A stretch of 64,000 bases of DNA, taken from the human T2T-CHM13v2.0 reference genome, Homo sapiens. The DNA is taken from NCBI RefSeq assembly GCF_009914755.1, contig NC_060927.1; one strand, written 5' to 3'. Positions 14,701-21,229 of this stretch are shown in pieces (position 1 is the stretch's first letter; every line of letters starts with the position of its first letter). Position numbers and translations under genes: made by a program. The notes beneath the pieces were generated by a model. The model saw only the letters and a program-made list of their open reading frames with translations, did not search any database and had not been told where the DNA came from.

Positions 14701-15779
14701 TCGATCACCAGCCCCACCCCTGGACAATACTTAAAGGAAAGCACTGGGAGAAAAAATGAAATGGAAATCAGTGGAGAGAGCTACGTGGCTTTATGAGGAG
14801 TACAGGGTCCCCCGAGAAAATAAATCTCTTCCCTTCCCACAAAGGGTGGAGAGACAGGGGTGCTTTCTTCTCTTCACTCCAATGGGGAACAGGGTCAGGA
14901 AAGTAACATGTGAAGATTGGGGATGTCAACAGGAAGACTTCATCGCCCTCCTAGGCTCTCTAATGCTGGCAACAGGTGGAGAGAAACATATTTAGAGAAT
15001 GCTTGGGAGAATGTGTAAATGTCTCCTGAAGATGAGGAGCACATGTGAACAGCCTCCTCTTGCCTGGGGTAGGAGGCTTAGAAGAGGGTCAGATGAAGAG
15101 TGCCTAGTGAAAAGAAGAGGGGGCACCTCCACCCCCGCGGAAGGAGTGTGAAGGTTAGGAGAGGGAGCAGGAACCACCGTTCCCCAAACGAACAGAGGAG
15201 ACACTCCTTCAGAAAGGGCAGCAGGGACCTGAACTTCTGGTCTGGTTGATAAGAGACAGGGCCACCCCTGAAGAGTCTTCAGCAATGGAAATAGAATGAA
15301 ACTGAGCACTACCCCCAAGGAAACCACATCCACTGTCTACACAGAGACAGCCACATCAGAAAAGACCTCAAGCTTCAGATAGCACCAGGTTAAACCAGAG
15401 AGAAATCAAGGCCACAGTACCACATGAGAGTCATGTAAGTTGACCCCTGCTTCTCATCTCTCTCTACTTCCCCAGTGTAGACAAACTAAAGACAGACGAG
15501 GGAGGAAGAAGAAGGGAAAGGGAAGCACATGCTCTCCCTCCATCCAGGTCCTTTGAGCCACAAGTCTAGACGGCAATGGCAAAGAATAAGCCATGGTGTT
15601 ACTTAGAGGATTGGTGTTTTTAACGGGACCTGGCTGTGTTTAATCATCAGAAGTGGCCAGAAAGTTATAGAATCTGTCAAGATCATGTAAAGGTTGAGAA
15701 AGGCAGACACCACAGTGCACAGCAATGAGTGGGAAAAAGTGTCTCATGTTGGTATCTCTATTGCACTGAGTATTTTCAG

Positions 15780-16770
15780 TGAGTCACTTACCATTTGGAT
15801 TCTCTCAATTGTCCTATTTTCCCTAATCCTCTTGAGCCATTCAGAGTTCATTTTTATGTGTCCTTTTAGGGACGAGAAACAAGACCAGAGCCCTCCTTCT
15901 CTTTGCTTTGCCTGTATCTTCTTGACTCATTGTCTTGCAGAGCAGACAGGCTTTCTCTGGGTGGCTGAAAACAAGGCCACCACCCTCTCCAACTTCAAAT
16001 TCTTCCTGATCCATCCCCCAGGTGCAGGGCCCTCCTCCAACTCCAGCTGAAAAAAAAAAAATCTCTCAGGGAAGGATTTGATTGGCCTTGCTTGAGTCAC
16101 ATGTTTCCCCCACCAAGGGATCAGTCTTGTGATTGGCACATAGCCCCTTGTCATGTGTTTGGAGTTAGGACAAAAGAGGTGCCATGCCCCCAGAATTAGG
16201 GTGGGCATTGCTAGAACAGATAAAATACTACAGATGGCCCACATGATACTAACATGCATTTTAAGCAGTTTTCATTCTGCTGACATCTTGGAATTCTTGT
16301 TTATCTACATGGTTTTAAAAGATAGTTTAAATCATGTGGGTCTTTTAAAAGCTTCTTTTAACAGAATCAAGTGATGATGAAAGAGAATAAAAGTGAGTGA
16401 TTACAGTTTCAATATTTTAGGTTTCTCTTCCCTAAAAGTTATAAAGGCCCGTTTATAAACAAGAACCTCTCTTTGGCCATCCCTTTTTTTTTCCCCTTGG
16501 ACAATAAAAAGATTAAAAAGTCACGTGGCTTAGTGTCTGCTGTTTGGACAGCACAGATTATAGAGCATTTCTCTCATTCCAGAAATTTCTGTTGGATGGC
16601 ACTGATGTGGACGCTTAACAGAGGCCAAAAGCACAAGCAGAATGAGCCAAGAACACATCGGTGATCAGAGCAATGCATGTACAGAACAAGGGAGGAGCAA
16701 ATGCCAGAGGGTAAGGTGAGTCAGCAGAGACCACAGTTCCTACAGGAACGGCTGGGGGACAAATGTGGTT
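15780..16770. promoter_or_regulatory. Candidate enhancer: AP-1/ARE, RUNX and E-box cluster
   Basis: TGASTCA at 15780, 15923, 16093 and 16717 (TGAGTCAGCA); GTCACGTGG 16520; ACCACA 16730; TGTGGTT 16764. Confidence 0.35.
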
Positions 16771-16844
16771 CCAGGGTTGGGGGTGACACCTTAGTTATCA
16801 CTGGGCTGGCTCCTTCTCTTCAAGCAGGAACCAAAGCCCTTACT

Positions 16845-17010
16845 GCTAGTTACTGGAAGAGCCCAAGCCAGTGTCAGAACCAGCACTTGTGGGCTGGGCA
16901 CAGTAGCTCATCCCTATAATTCCAGCACTTTGGGTGGCCAAGGCGGGAGGATTGCTTGAGGACAGGCGTTCAAGACCAGCTTGGGCAACACAGGGAGACA
17001 TTGTCTCCCT
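16845..17010 (+). repeat. Inverted copy of 17779-17944 (47 bp flank plus Alu left monomer 16892-17010)
   Basis: gctagttactggaagagcccaagccagtgtcagaaccagcacttgtg-ggctgggcac ... gggagacattgtctc is the reverse complement of 17779-17944, including private Alu mutations. Confidence 0.92.
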
Positions 17011-17258
17011 GTGTCTCCTGCTTACTGGAAGGAAGGTCAGTGGAAGGAGGTAAGCAGGTATAGCTGGCTGGAGTATGGCACATAGCATAAGGGCAAGAAT
17101 AGATTCGTTCTGCACAAGAATAGATTCCTTGCCCAGGGAGAGACCTGACATTTTGGGGTCCAAACTTGTCAGGAAAGAAACAGAAATAAAGAAAACAAAG
17201 TCACTTAAGCTACCCTTTCTGGAGAGTCTTAACCTCTTTTTCTCTCTTCTAAGCTTTC

Positions 17259-17944
17259 TGATCAAAATGAAGCCAAGAAAATAAAGGTCTGGAAGGAGTT
17301 GGGCGGAACATCCAACCCAGAATATTCCTTTTTATAGATGTACCAGAATTCAAACATTCCCCCATGTGAGGCACTTTTAGGTTGTCCTAGTTATCTTTGC
17401 TTACCTAGTCCCTGATAGTGTCTGGCACAGAGTTGGTATTCAGAAAATGTTGTTGAATAAATTAATTAATCCCCTTTCAGTTACGTAAGGAAACAGTAGT
17501 TGCCCAGGAAAACAGTCATCTATTAAATGTGGGCATGAAGGGAATAATGGATATTAAGGTATATCATTTAAGACAGTGGCTGCTACAGCACATCACAAGT
17601 GCTGGTTTGGTTTTACTTTTGGAGACGGTCTCTCTCTGTCAGCCAGGCTGGAAAGCAGTGACATGATCATAGTTCACTGTACCTTGTACTCATGGGCTCA
17701 AGCGATACTCATTCAACCTCCTGAGTAGCTAAAACTAGAGGGGCACGCCACCATGCTCGGCTAATTTTTTTTTTTTTTAGAGAGACAATGTCTCCCTATG
17801 TTGCCCAGGCTGGTCTTGAACTCCTGGCCTCGAGGATTCTCCCCATCTTAGCCTCCCAAAGCACTGGAATTACAGGGATGAGCTGTTGTGCCCAGCCCAC
17901 AAGTACTGGTTCTGACACTGGCTTGGGCTCTTCCAGTAACTAGC
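17259..17944 (-). repeat. Left arm of long inverted repeat (interrupted by an Alu)
   Basis: Matches the reverse complement of 19080-19464 once the Alu at 17608-17897 and one TSD copy are removed. Confidence 0.95.
17608..17897 (-). mobile_element. Full-length old Alu (AluJ-like)
   Basis: Diverged antisense Alu (catgatcatagttcactg, gggctcaagcgat, ctatgttgcccaggctgg). TSD cacaagtgctggtt (17594-17607) / cacaagtactggtt (17898-17911). Confidence 0.92.
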
Positions 17945-19079
17945 TGTATTCCCTGTGCCTCAGTTTCCTTATCTGTGAAATGGGGGTATTGCATTTGATG
18001 TGCTCCATGGGCCTGTCCAGCTCTCAAATTCTCTGCATAGTGACACCTGACCATTCCTTCTTTGACCTAGAACACAGGCTTTCCCTGCACTGCCGCCAAA
18101 AGTGTATTAAAGAGATTTCTGCTGTCTTTTTGGTGGGGATAAAGGAGTCTATTAAGGGGGGCAGGTATTAACCCTTCCCCCATCAAATGTGAGTTTGGGA
18201 GTGTCCCCAGTCCATCTGGTGCCATCTTACCTGCGCTTTAAGTTGTAAAACTATTCATGATTATGTACATGTCTGTCTGAGACCACAGGACTGGGGAGAA
18301 GTCCTCCCTAATCTCAGCAGAAAGCTGGAAGCCAGCTTGTGTGATTGATTTCTGGAAGCAGAAAGAAGAATGTGCAGCTCCGAGAAGGGGTTAATGCAGG
18401 AGGTCATAAAATTGCAGGCAAGAAATTTAAATTAAAAAAAAAAAAAGGCCAAGGAAACAGGCACCTTCAAGCAAGTAAGCAAAAAAAAAAAAAAAAAAAA
18501 AAAAAAACAGGAAATAACATGTAAAACTACCTACAGACTCCGTACTTTATGCATTTCTAACTACTTATGTGCCTCTGGTTTGGGAAAAACAAAGCTAGTG
18601 AGTTCAATATCATTATCTTTACTTTACAGAGAGAAAACTGGCCAGGAGAGGTTCTCTAATTAATTTGCATTACTGAGAGCCTATTAAGTACCAGGCGTAA
18701 GTTATACAGCAGTGTATGTGATGGACATGAAACTTACAGCTCACTGAGAGCTGTCAGATATTGAAAAAATGATTAGCCAAATAACTACTTAATCATAACG
18801 ATGTGATATATAAAAGGAAAAGTCTAGGGTACTCAGTGGGATGCAGACAAGTAACAGGTGCAACTATCTAACTTGTTGGAGGGGTCAGAGAAGGGCTCTG
18901 AGGAGGTAAGCAGGAATCTGAAGGATGGGTGGGAGGTCGCCAGGTCAGGAACGTGGAGGCAGAGTATGAACACTGTGCGTGAAGCAATCTGCTAAAAATC
19001 CCCGTGCCAACTGGAAGTCAAGTTGTTGCCATTATCTATTTCTTCCTTTTCTCCTGTGCTTCAAGACCCAGAAAGCACG

Positions 19080-19464
19080 GCTAGTTACTGGCAGAGCTCA
19101 AACCAGTATCAGAACCAGCACTCGTGATGTGGTGCTGCAGCAGCCACTGCCTTAAATGATATATCTTAATATCCATTATCCCCTTCGTGCCCATGTTCAA
19201 TAGATAAATGTTTTCCTGGGCAACTACTGTTTCCTTAAGTAACTGAAAGGGGATTCATTAATTTATTCAACAACATTTTCTGAATACCAACTCTGTGCCA
19301 GACACTGTCAGGGACTAGGTAAGCAAAGATAACTAGGACAACCTAAAAGTGCCTCACATGGGGGAATGTTTGAATTCTGGTACATCTATAAAAAGGAATA
19401 TTCTGGGTTGGATGTTCCGCCCAACTCCTTCCAGACCTTTATTTTCTTGGCTTCATCCTGATCA
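19080..19464 (+). repeat. Right arm of long inverted repeat, with empty Alu target site
   Basis: Reverse complement of 17259-17607 plus 17912-17944. Single target-site copy aaccagcactcgtg at 19113-19126. Confidence 0.95.
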
Positions 19465-20459
19465 AAAAATTTATAAAGAGAGAGAGAGGGAAAAAAAAAG
19501 AAAAAGAAAAAAGAAAAAACCGGTATTGGTCCCAGCCAAATGGAGCTCCACAGTCAATGGCCTCAGGAAGATCCCCCACCTGCACCCCCGACTGTGCTGG
19601 GGCCCCTATTACTGCCCTTGTAGAATCCGGGTTTTCTTCCTAGCCCTTAGCTAATTTGCAATTATACATTTATTTTTGTGATTGTTAGATGAATGCCTGT
19701 CTTCTGCATTAAGCACAAGGTACAGGAGAGAAGGGACCAGTCCTGCTTTTGGTCTCCACTGTATCCTCAGCACCTAATCCAGGACTATGATAGAGAATCT
19801 GCCCAATAACCATTTGTTGAGTGAGTATATGAATAAAGCTGACAAGCGAGAGAAATCTCATAACTAAAGAAAAAGAGAGAAATAGTTAATAACAAGAACA
19901 ACTTGACCTCCAGTTAGTACAGGGATTTTTAGTATATTGCCTGGCACATAGTGTTTGCACTCTTAAATGACAGTTATTATTTAAGATAACTTTAAATAAC
20001 CTGAAACTAGAAAAATAGCTGAAGCTTTCCTTCTAAACCTGTGATGATTATCCCTGTTGTGGGGTGAGAGAAGTGACGCAACTTGCCTATAGCCGCAGCA
20101 CTGGAACTCTCAGCCTGATGCACGCCCTAATAACCCTTATACCTTGACAAGAGTCACACAAAGAAGAACCTGCCTTCTTCCTCCTTTTCTCCACAGCATC
20201 CTACCTATCGTGAGCTCTTATCACCAAACTTTGAAAATCTCTGTAATACCTTCTCAGTTTTTTGTCTGTACCACCTAGACAATTATTTGCTTAATACCTT
20301 TCTTTAAATCAACCCAGTGGGTTACTTTGAAAAGTTCAATAGAAAGTATACTATCGCTTTATCTTAAATATTGGAGAACTGCAATAAACACGATGAAAAC
20401 AAAAACGCCTTGACTAAATTCACATATTAATGTCTGAGAAAGGATCTTGGCCTGAGGGC

Positions 20460-20870
20460 TACTCTCTGAAGCAGCTAAAGGAGACATACTAAAGGAACTT
20501 CTTTACGCAGAAGGAAAGGCTCCCAGATGGAAGGAAGGAAGTGCAGGAGGAAAAGCAACGCATCTAAAAGGGTAAATACAAAAATTGTTCCCTGTTGAAA
20601 GCAAAGAATAACAATAGTGTGTGTGTGTATGTGTGTGTGTGTGTATAAAACAGACGACCTCAGGACCAAACAGGCAGGAACAGAATAAATACATTTAAAT
20701 TGTAAGGGTCTTGCATAGTTCAGGTTGTAATAAAAGTAGTAATTGGAAGTAGACTGCAATAAGTTAAGGATGTATTTTATAATTTCTAGGGCACCCAACC
20801 ACTAGAATGATAGAACAATGCACAACAGAAACGCTAACGCAGGAGATAAAGTAGGCAGGGGAAAAAGAAA
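20460..20870 (+). mobile_element. Old L1 fragment with internal (TG)n
   Basis: atactaaaggaacttcttt ... agtagactgcaataagttaaggatgtattttataatttctagggcacccaaccact resembles L1M sequence; (TG)n at about 20617-20644. Confidence 0.55.
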
Positions 20871-21229
20871 TTAGCAAAGATGTGTTAACAAGGTAAAAAA
20901 AAGAAATGCCAGTACAAACCAAAGACTTCAGTAGGTCTGAATGAAGCTTGGAAAGAAAATAAACTTCGTGCTTTTGATTCAATATTTTCTAATGCTGCAC
21001 CTGTGACCCACCTGAAATTCACCTCCTCTTACCCTCAAGAAGTGGATATAGGCTTTGAAGCCTGGTTCACCCAATGGGTATGACGAGGAGGCCATTCATT
21101 ATTAGGACTGGTGCTTGGAATCAAATGTTCATATCCTCCTCACTTTTCTCATGGGACAAATGTCAGAGCAGAATTGGACTCTGCATAGGGAACCAGATGC
21201 CACTTCTAACCAGAGGCCTTCCTTCAAAC

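What the first reader, a model, noticed from the sequence alone, without database searches (positions are those of the whole stretch)
17259..19464. Old inverted repeat with a near-identical core: Alu-filled site in one arm, empty site in the other
Seen: 17259-17944 is the reverse complement of 19080-19464, with a ~1.1-kb spacer. By hand alignment 17267-17415 is identical (149 bp) and 17267-17464 has one mismatch. Divergence then rises towards the spacer (about 4, then 7, mismatches per 60 bp). The left arm holds a full AluJ-like element between two TSD copies; the right arm has the single empty site (19113-19126). Established: AluJ insertions are tens of millions of years old, and the L2/MIR remnants in the arms would not be ~99% identical as independent insertions. 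Inference: the duplication predates the Alu, so the core must have been re-homogenised by gene conversion or recurrent inversion of the enclosed segment. This would be a possibly inversion-polymorphic or fold-back-capable element about 28 kb upstream of CTNNB1.
Basis: partly seen in the sequence, partly recalled or inferred. Interest (0 to 1): 0.8.

Follow-up and report, generated by a model that had tools for sequence, protein, structure and literature searches.

The report
Old inverted duplication with gene-conversion core
Two short inverted copies of the same stretch upstream of CTNNB1 have drifted far apart at their edges but stay almost identical in a 248-base middle part, which is best explained by copy-correction between the two; this is a known and fairly ordinary process.

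Summary
17233-17607 plus 17912-~17960 is the reverse complement of 19064-19489 (blastn E 6e-162). The left arm holds a 290-bp two-monomer Alu (17608-17897, minus strand) between 14-bp target-site duplications. The right arm has one unfilled site at 19113-19126.

Divergence is mosaic: 3 differences in the 248-bp core (149 bp identical) against 32 in 177 flanking homologous columns. None of 20,000 permutations reached this.

New here: a third, partial inverted copy at 16840-17010 carries the same flank/Alu junction and is 12% diverged. So the Alu insertion is much older than the last homogenisation of the core. Full-length copies of the arm occur only twice in T2T-CHM13.

Best reading (0.78): an old inverted duplication whose centre has stayed in concerted evolution by non-allelic gene conversion, while the edges and the Alu-adjacent part escaped.

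The inversion and fold-back ideas are untested. The longest uninterrupted identity (149 bp) is below published thresholds for efficient recombination, and the spacer is 1.1-1.5 kb. No primate orthologues or population data were available, so selection on the core is not formally excluded. This is a new example of a known process, of modest interest.

The parts
16840..16891 (+). Copy C, flank piece 'm': third copy of the 51-nt segment that borders the Alu in the left arm
   Evidence: 2 of 51 differences from rc(17898-17948); 88% to 19077-19126. This 51-nt piece matched only C in the genome-wide search with the left-arm query, and the right-arm query likewise found only C.
16892..17010 (+). Copy C, Alu left monomer only: partial inverted duplicate of the left-arm Alu, joined to 'm' at the same junction
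   Evidence: 84.0% over 119 nt to the left-arm Alu, against 69-76% for the 10 other matches to Alus in the window. 13 shared non-consensus states at non-CpG sites against 0-8 for the other Alus. Rfam SRP hit 16893-17009.
17233..17266 (.). Left arm, outer edge: homologous but strongly diverged (pairs with 19457-19489)
   Evidence: 9 differences in 34 columns; pyrimidine-rich, so the exact end of homology is uncertain.
17267..17514 (.). Left arm, near-identical core = inferred gene-conversion domain (pairs with 19209-19456)
   Evidence: 3 differences in 248 columns, 149 bp identical (17267-17415). 0 of 20,000 permutations reach either figure. Fisher p 2e-10 against the flanks.
17515..17607 (.). 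Left arm, inner part next to the Alu, including TSD copy 1 (17594-17607); pairs with 19113-19208
   Evidence: 12 difference events in 94 columns, including a 3-bp indel.
17608..17897 (-). Full-length dimeric Alu, old, present in the left arm only
   Evidence: Rfam Metazoa_SRP hits for both monomers, below gathering score. Most diverged of the 12 Alu pieces compared in the window (non-CpG 61/256 = 23.8% from the local majority consensus). Flanked by the 14-bp TSD.
17898..17960 (.). TSD copy 2 (17898-17911) and the distal piece 'm' of the left arm (pairs with 19064-19112)
   Evidence: 11 differences in 49 columns for 17912-17960. Beyond ~17949 the last 12 columns are near-random, and further extension does not align (z 0.8).
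17961..19063 (.). Spacer between the arms
   Evidence: 18050-18960 (911 of its 1,103 bases) was searched and found only itself in the genome. The spacer contains a pure A27 run at 18481-18507.
19064..19489 (.). Right arm: 'm' (19064-19112), unfilled Alu target site (19113-19126), inner part (to 19208), core (19209-19456), outer edge (19457-19489)

Best explanation
This is a passive product of genome history, not a device. An old local inverted duplication of about 0.43 kb of unique sequence carrying ancient SINE/LINE remnants produced two arms 1.1 kb apart. An Alu then inserted into the left arm. Later, the piece 'flank + left Alu monomer' was duplicated again, inverted, 0.77 kb further left (copy C). 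Throughout, or at least until a few million years ago, the central ~250 bp of the two arms kept exchanging sequence by non-allelic (interlocus) gene conversion, with or without crossover. The parts that conversion tracts could no longer cover diverged freely: the extreme outer edge, and the part next to and beyond the 290-bp Alu heterology. What remains is a shrinking island of concerted evolution. Shown: the anatomy, the significant mosaic of divergence, the relative order of events, and that full-length copies of the arm occur only twice in the genome. Inferred: that the mechanism is conversion rather than constraint, that the Alu acted as a barrier, and that conversion was repeated rather than a single late event.
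For: (1) Mosaic divergence: core 3/248, outer edge 9/34, inner part 12/94, beyond the Alu 11/49. 0 of 20,000 permutations give an identical run of 149 or more, or a stretch of 248 or more with 3 or fewer differences (maxima 128 and 186). Fisher p 1.9e-10. (2) The core's length, 248 bp, matches what a paper read here states for mammalian conversion tracts: a few hundred bp, rarely above 1 kb (passage of PMC3961182). (3) Order of events: the right arm has a single unfilled target site. Copy C carries the identical m/Alu junction, shares 13 derived non-CpG states with the left-arm Alu, and differs from it at 16/103 non-CpG sites. So the Alu is older than an event that is itself about ten times more diverged than the core. 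(4) The left-arm Alu is the most diverged of the 12 Alu pieces compared in the window. (5) No third donor: a whole-genome search with 17233-17607 finds only the two arms plus two 50-57-nt matches at 84-86% (4 matches in all). (6) Flank differences are mostly transitions (26 of 30 substitutions), as expected for neutral decay. (7) With flanks at ~18% divergence a single late conversion would have had almost no uninterrupted homology to start from. Passages read give a 20-fold drop in recombination when identity falls from 232 to 134 bp, and MEPS above 200 bp in mouse and 337-456 bp in human. This favours continuous homogenisation of a shrinking core.
Against: No orthologous sequences could be examined, so the defining phylogenetic signature (cores grouping by species, flanks by arm) is not shown. 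Strong purifying selection on both cores would give the same picture in a single genome. The counts in the flanks are small (34, 94 and 49 columns), and the step from inner part to beyond-Alu is not significant (p 0.15), so the 'gradient' is really core against everything else. The outer 34 bp are low-complexity, so their homology, and hence the outer boundary, is uncertain. The last exchange is dated only to 1.2-35 Myr, so ongoing conversion is not demonstrated. Only one haplotype (CHM13) was seen.
Confidence: 0.78

Rival explanations
1. Conversion came as a by-product of one or more NAHR crossovers between the arms. That is, the 1.5-1.9 kb segment between the cores (Alu, spacer and inner arm parts) has flipped at least once and may still be polymorphic.
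For: The arms are inverted, intrachromosomal and 1.1-1.5 kb apart. [quoted passage not shown] The core is 248 bp at 98.8% identity.
Against: Nothing in one haplotype distinguishes a crossover from a non-crossover conversion. The longest uninterrupted identity is 149 bp, below the MEPS figures read. In the same preprint 23 of 32 (72%) recurrent autosomal/X inversions had flanking repeats of at least 10 kbp. No entry near this place appeared in the supplementary files I could search, but these were partial and the hg38 coordinates were my own estimate.
Confidence: 0.1
2. The core is a functional element (for example a SINE-derived enhancer or an RNA stem) kept nearly invariant in both copies by purifying selection since the duplication, with no exchange between copies.
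For: Selection also produces a sharply bounded block of identity. Ancient SINE fragments are sometimes exapted (recalled knowledge). The locus lies 27 kb upstream of CTNNB1 (hub table).
Against: It would need near-ultraconservation (149 of 149, 245 of 248) in two paralogues over the time in which adjacent sequence changed by 13-26%. No RefSeq functional element is listed at 17-19.5 kb (hub table). No Rfam family matches the core at E <= 1 (7 matches in 16500-20000, none in 17233-17607 or 19113-19489). The 3 core differences include 2 transversions and show no obvious pattern.
Confidence: 0.06
3. A single late replicative patch: template switching or break-induced copying (MMBIR/SDSA) overwrote ~250 bp of one arm with the other arm's sequence once, without any long history of concerted evolution. 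Or the near-identity is private to this haplotype or assembly.
For: A one-off copy event gives the same end state. The region shows other signs of template-switch-like history: three interleaved inverted pairs (C/L, L/R, and 18961-19052 / 19868-19963).
Against: In outcome this is a mechanistic variant of gene conversion. The intermediate divergence of the inner part (12/94) between core and edges fits repeated, shrinking tracts slightly better, though not significantly. Arms of 0.4 kb are far shorter than the long reads behind a T2T assembly (general knowledge), so a collapse or false duplication is unlikely.
Confidence: 0.06

Closest known systems
Arm-to-arm gene conversion in large human palindromes and inverted segmental duplications (Y-chromosome palindromes P1-P8, X-linked inverted repeats; recalled, no paper on them was read here)
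   Same: Two inverted paralogous arms around a unique spacer; arms kept far more alike than their age allows by intrachromosomal non-allelic conversion.
   Different: Those arms span kilobases to megabases at >99.9% identity along their whole length and carry genes. Here the arm is 0.43 kb, only 248 bp is still homogenised, the rest has escaped, and no gene is involved.
Inverted-repeat-mediated (NAHR) polymorphic inversions of the InvFEST/Strand-seq catalogues (PMC3961182, passages; bioRxiv 10.1101/2021.12.20.472354, passages)
   Same: Inverted repeats of at least 200 bp flanking a short unique segment; conversion and crossover are two outcomes of the same recombination.
   Different: No second orientation has been observed here. 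Repeats of recurrent inversions are mostly 10 kbp or longer. Uninterrupted identity here is 149 bp.
Intergenic 'inverted duplicates' of mammalian genomes (Chen et al. 2017, PMC5398296; abstract and Methods read)
   Same: A local inverted duplication in intergenic DNA that overlaps interspersed repeats and could give a hairpin RNA if transcribed.
   Different: That survey capped the spacer at 1,000 nt, so this pair (spacer 1,103-1,540) lay outside it. Expression of this locus is unknown.
Closely spaced inverted Alu pairs and palindromes that break chromosomes (Ait Saada et al. 2023, PMC10164571; abstract read)
   Same: Inverted repeats that anneal into a fold-back when single-stranded. In the computed minimum-energy fold of 17233-19489, 355-358 of ~811-814 pairs are arm-to-arm.
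   Different: According to that abstract, instability falls with distance and divergence, except in very long single-stranded regions. Here the spacer is over 1 kb.

Membership tests
Paralogous pair under interlocus (non-allelic) gene conversion / concerted evolution | Two true paralogues, not independent copies of a dispersed repeat family | tested here: met
   Whole-genome search with 17233-17607: 4 matches, namely the two arms (100% and 93%) plus two 50-57-nt matches at 84-86%. The alignment is collinear across two separate old repeat remnants and the unique DNA between them.
Paralogous pair under interlocus (non-allelic) gene conversion / concerted evolution | Significantly heterogeneous divergence: a tract far more similar than the rest of the alignment | tested here: met
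   3/248 against 32/177. 0 of 20,000 permutations reach the observed run of 149 or the 248-column stretch with 3 differences. Fisher p 1.9e-10.
Paralogous pair under interlocus (non-allelic) gene conversion / concerted evolution | Tract length in the known range (tens to several hundred bp) | tested here: met
   248 bp, against 'a few hundred base pairs, rarely longer than 1 kb' (passage of PMC3961182).
Paralogous pair under interlocus (non-allelic) gene conversion / concerted evolution | Converted region groups by species, unconverted flanks group by paralogue, in a multi-species tree | not testable with these tools
   Only the window's own assembly is held; no other primate genome could be searched.
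NAHR-mediated inversion polymorphism | Inverted repeats of at least ~200 bp at both breakpoints | tested here: met
   345-nt ungapped arms at 94%; the criterion is taken.
NAHR-mediated inversion polymorphism | Uninterrupted identity at or above the minimal efficient processing segment | tested here: not met
   The longest identical run is 149 bp. Published figures read here: above 200 bp in mouse, 337-456 bp in human, and a 20-fold drop from 232 to 134 bp.
NAHR-mediated inversion polymorphism | Both orientations observed among haplotypes or species | not testable with these tools
   One haplotype only. Nothing was found at the estimated coordinates in the readable supplements of three papers. 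The supplement of a fourth could not be read.
Alu (7SL-derived SINE) retrotransposition insertion | Dimeric 7SL-related body, A-rich 3' end, target-site duplication, and an unfilled paralogous/orthologous site | tested here: met
   Rfam Metazoa_SRP hits to both monomers, below gathering score. 14-bp TSD at 17594-17607 and 17898-17911, short decayed A-rich tail next to 17608, empty site at 19113-19126. The subfamily name (AluJ) was not tested, because no repeat library is held; only its rank as the most diverged Alu in the window was tested.
DNA transposon / MITE with long terminal inverted repeats | Many dispersed copies with the same termini | tested here: not met
   Full-length copies of the arm occur only at this locus. 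The searched 911 bases of the spacer found only themselves.
Cruciform-forming palindrome / fragile inverted repeat | Short or absent spacer | tested here: not met
   1,103 nt lie between the arm ends and 1,540 nt between the well-matched parts.
Known structured RNA or miRNA hairpin locus | Match to a curated RNA family in the arms | tested here: not met
   cmscan of 16500-20000 at E <= 1 gave 7 matches. Five lie within Alu sequence (SRP and Alu-derived mir families), one at 18123-18210 and one at 16562-16657. None is in the arm cores.

The most novel reading that the evidence does not exclude
The pair is a minimal-size 'toggling' inverted repeat: about 250-350 bp of homology has sustained concerted evolution for tens of millions of years. 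It has repeatedly flipped the ~1.5-1.9 kb segment between the cores, so that humans or apes differ in which side of the spacer carries the Alu. If so, it would set a lower bound for the repeat length that supports recurrent inversion, in a region upstream of CTNNB1 that could hold regulatory DNA.
Probability: 0.1. Interest if true: 0.5.

Novelty: new member of a known kind. Interest (0 to 1): 0.3.

Why it matters
It is a clean, datable small example of how concerted evolution ends. An insertion in one copy (the Alu) and the edges of homology mark where conversion stopped, and a later partial re-duplication gives an internal time stamp. Such small inverted pairs with spacers over 1 kb fell outside at least one genome-wide survey (spacer cap 1,000 nt). 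They are also hard to genotype for orientation. Nothing found here links the structure to CTNNB1 regulation or disease, so its practical importance is low unless an inversion polymorphism or a transcript is found.

Tried and rejected

(2) A locus-specific description in print. The search 'CTNNB1' + 'inverted repeat' + 'upstream' gave 49 papers; the 10 listed are about circRNA or cancer, not this locus (listing only).

(3) Inversion catalogues. I searched the readable supplements of PMC13629690, PMC13721702 and PMC12350169 (one file cut when stored, one PDF unreadable) for coordinate prefixes in T2T and estimated hg38. Only unrelated numbers matched. The HPRC2 supplements could not be read. The hg38 coordinates were derived from a recalled CTNNB1 start, so they are approximate.

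(4) The arms continuing through the whole old repeat beyond ~17949/19077: 17950-18120 against rc(18890-19075) scores no better than shuffles (z 0.8).

(5) The inverted match 18961-19052 / 19868-19963 as the 'missing' continuation of the left arm: rejected, because its homology stops at 19052/19868 and does not reach 'm'.

(6) An extension of copy C towards the right arm's upstream flank: the gapped ~30-nt match is too weak to count.

(7) A long-TIR transposon: rejected on copy number.

(8) An RNA family in the core: none found.

(9) A possible second conversion between copy C and the left arm ('m' 2/51 against Alu part 19/119, p 0.04): marginal, left open.

Full report
**Observation**

The inverted repeat exists and is far beyond chance.
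- The repeat finder reports arms 17247-17591 and 19132-19476: 345 nt, ungapped, 94% complementary.
- A sensitive blastn self-comparison of 15500-21000 gives 17233-17607 against 19489-19113 at 93.1% over 378 columns, E 6e-162. It also gives a second piece, 17898-17947 against 19126-19077, at 86%.
- Between the two pieces the left arm carries 290 bp (17608-17897) that the right arm lacks.
- This insert matches Rfam Metazoa_SRP on the minus strand as two monomers, 17780-17896 and 17623-17761, both below the gathering score, as expected for an Alu.
- It is bounded by the 14-nt direct repeat CACAAGT(G/A)CTGGTT at 17594-17607 and 17898-17911. The right arm has this sequence once, at 19113-19126.
- With the Alu and one repeat copy removed, the arms align from 17233-17960 to 19489-19064 (427 columns).
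- 17267-17415 is identical (149 bp). The first three differences are at 17416, 17467 and 17485.

**A third copy**

- It consists of the 51-nt flank piece I call 'm' (2 of 51 differences from the left arm), joined at exactly the same point to the left monomer of the Alu.
- That monomer is 84% identical to the left-arm Alu. The left-arm Alu is only 69-76% identical to the 10 other matches to Alus in the window.
- The two share 13 non-consensus states at non-CpG sites, against 0-8 for the other Alus.
- Copy C is therefore a duplicate made after the Alu had inserted, and it has since diverged at 16 of 103 non-CpG sites.
- In 'm' the three copies group as (C, left arm) against the right arm: 5 sites against 1 and 0, read from the alignments.
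- The homology of all three copies ends within about 12 nt of the same point (16840 / 17949 / 19077).
- Beyond it the left arm runs into a sequence that matches 30-odd dispersed loci at 79-100% identity (32 of the 34 matches). I recognise this from memory as the conserved core of the MIR SINE; no repeat library was available to confirm the name.
- The right arm's continuation does not align with the left arm's (z 0.8).

**Uniqueness**

The window's own assembly (T2T-CHM13, 3.1 Gb) could be searched.
- The left arm finds itself, the right arm (93%), and two 50-57-nt matches at 84-86% elsewhere: 4 matches in all.
- 'm' matched only copy C, whether queried from the left arm or from the right arm. 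Neither search listed the left-right 'm' match, which is 86% over 50 nt and fell below the search's sensitivity.
- 18050-18960 of the spacer and 17006-17240 found only themselves.
- So the arms are a locus-specific low-copy duplication, not two members of a young repeat family, and no third donor exists in this genome at the search's sensitivity.

**Mosaic divergence**

Counting each indel as one event, the 425 columns hold 35 differences:

| Segment | Differences | Columns |
|---|---|---|
| Outer edge 17233-17266 | 9 | 34 |
| Core 17267-17514 | 3 | 248 |
| Inner part 17515-17607 | 12 | 94 |
| Beyond the Alu 17912-17960 | 11 | 49 |

- None of 20,000 random placements of 35 differences gave an identical run of 149 or more (maximum 128). 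None gave a stretch of 248 or more with at most 3 differences (maximum 186).
- Core against flanks gives Fisher p 1.9e-10.
- The step from the inner part to beyond the Alu is not significant (p 0.15). The robust statement is 'core against the rest', not a smooth gradient.
- Flank substitutions are 26 of 30 transitions.

**Dating**

I used recalled substitution rates of 0.5-1.0e-9 per site per year for recent times and up to 2.2e-9 for deep time.
- The core's 3 differences give about 6-12 Myr, with a Poisson range of 1.2-35 Myr.
- The pooled flanks (K 0.21) give about 47-103 Myr, and copy C against the left-arm Alu (K 0.17 at non-CpG sites) about 40-87 Myr.
- The absolute figures are rough. The order is not: duplication of the arms, then Alu insertion (the right arm is unfilled), then copy C, then, much later, the last homogenisation of the core.
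- The left-arm Alu is the most diverged of the 12 Alu pieces compared (23.8% at non-CpG sites from a majority consensus of the window's other Alus). This agrees with 'old Alu', though the subfamily was not determined.

**Mechanism**

The best explanation is non-allelic gene conversion between the inverted arms.
- The 248-bp size is typical of mammalian tracts (passage read).
- Recombination needs a stretch of uninterrupted identity. Passages read here give a 20-fold drop when it falls from 232 to 134 bp, and thresholds of over 200 bp in mouse and 337-456 bp in human.
- A single late conversion between arms already ~18% diverged would therefore have been very inefficient.
- I infer that the core was kept alike by repeated conversion since the duplication, and that the homogenised domain shrank.
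- Tracts cannot extend past the end of homology, which explains the outer edge. They also cannot cross the 290-bp Alu heterology without deleting or copying it, which explains the inner part and 'm'. Those parts drifted out of reach.
- This last step is inference.

**Rivals**

- A crossover version (actual inversion of the enclosed 1.5-1.9 kb) cannot be told from a non-crossover version in one haplotype.
- Purifying selection on both cores would mimic the pattern. It would require near-ultraconservation in two paralogues, and there is no RefSeq functional element (hub table) and no Rfam match in the cores.
- A one-off replicative patch gives the same outcome as conversion.
- An assembly error is unlikely for 0.4-kb arms in a long-read assembly (general knowledge).
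- Precise loss of the Alu from the right arm by recombination between the 14-nt repeats cannot be excluded. It would not change the conclusion, which rests on the mosaic divergence.

**Inversion and fold-back claims**

- As single strands the arms do pair. In the minimum-energy fold of 17233-19489, 355 of 811 pairs (RNA parameters) and 358 of 814 (DNA parameters) are arm-to-arm.
- The abstract of PMC10164571 states that distance and divergence normally reduce inverted-repeat instability, except in very long single-stranded regions. The spacer here is 1.1-1.5 kb.
- For NAHR, a preprint reports that 132 of 183 sequence-resolved balanced inversions have inverted repeats of at least 200 bp. However, 23 of 32 recurrent ones have repeats of at least 10 kbp.
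- With 149 bp of uninterrupted identity, the present-day rate should be low.
- I found no listing of an inversion here, but the look-ups were partial.

**Comparison with what is known**

- This is the same process as arm-to-arm conversion in large palindromes and inverted segmental duplications, on a much smaller and decaying scale.
- The genome-wide survey of mammalian inverted duplicates that I read capped spacers at 1,000 nt, so this pair lay outside it.
- I found no paper describing this locus (listing only).

**Verdict**

The inversion and fold-back extensions remain open and are a priori weak. This is a new example of a known kind of event, of modest interest.

Noticed in passing
window 16840-17010: Third, partial inverted copy of the left arm's 'flank + Alu left monomer'. 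With the left arm it forms a second inverted pair (170 nt, 88%, 768 nt apart), interleaved with the main pair. The flank part is more similar (2/51) than the Alu part (19/119; p 0.04), a marginal hint of a second conversion.
   Followed up: yes
window 18961-19052 and 19868-19963: Another inverted pair (96 columns, 77%, two gaps) that brackets the right arm. It does not extend into 'm' and found no other genome match at the search's sensitivity. It may be two old repeat copies of one family or a further local inverted duplication.
   Followed up: partly
window 18481-18507 (also 18434-18446): A pure run of 27 A, and a 13-A run 35 nt upstream, inside an otherwise single-copy spacer. This could be a length-variable mononucleotide repeat or the tail of an old retroposed fragment.
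   Followed up: no
window 16988-17014: A 27-nt near-perfect palindrome (1 mismatch) exactly where copy C's Alu homology ends. It may mark a template-switch or hairpin-mediated junction of the partial inverted duplication.
   Followed up: no
window 17225-17250 and 19477-19525: Both outer ends of the arms run into pyrimidine-rich (left) and purine-rich (right) low-complexity tracts, including a 13-nt unit repeated 1.9 times at 19494-19518. The outer homology boundary therefore lies in sequence that could have offered microhomology when the duplication formed.
   Followed up: no
window 17949 / 19077 / 16840: All three copies lose homology at the same point inside what looks like an old SINE. Left and right arms each continue as SINE-like sequence that does not align with the other. 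This could mean the duplication arose by copying from one pre-existing SINE copy into another, using their homology. Speculative.
   Followed up: partly
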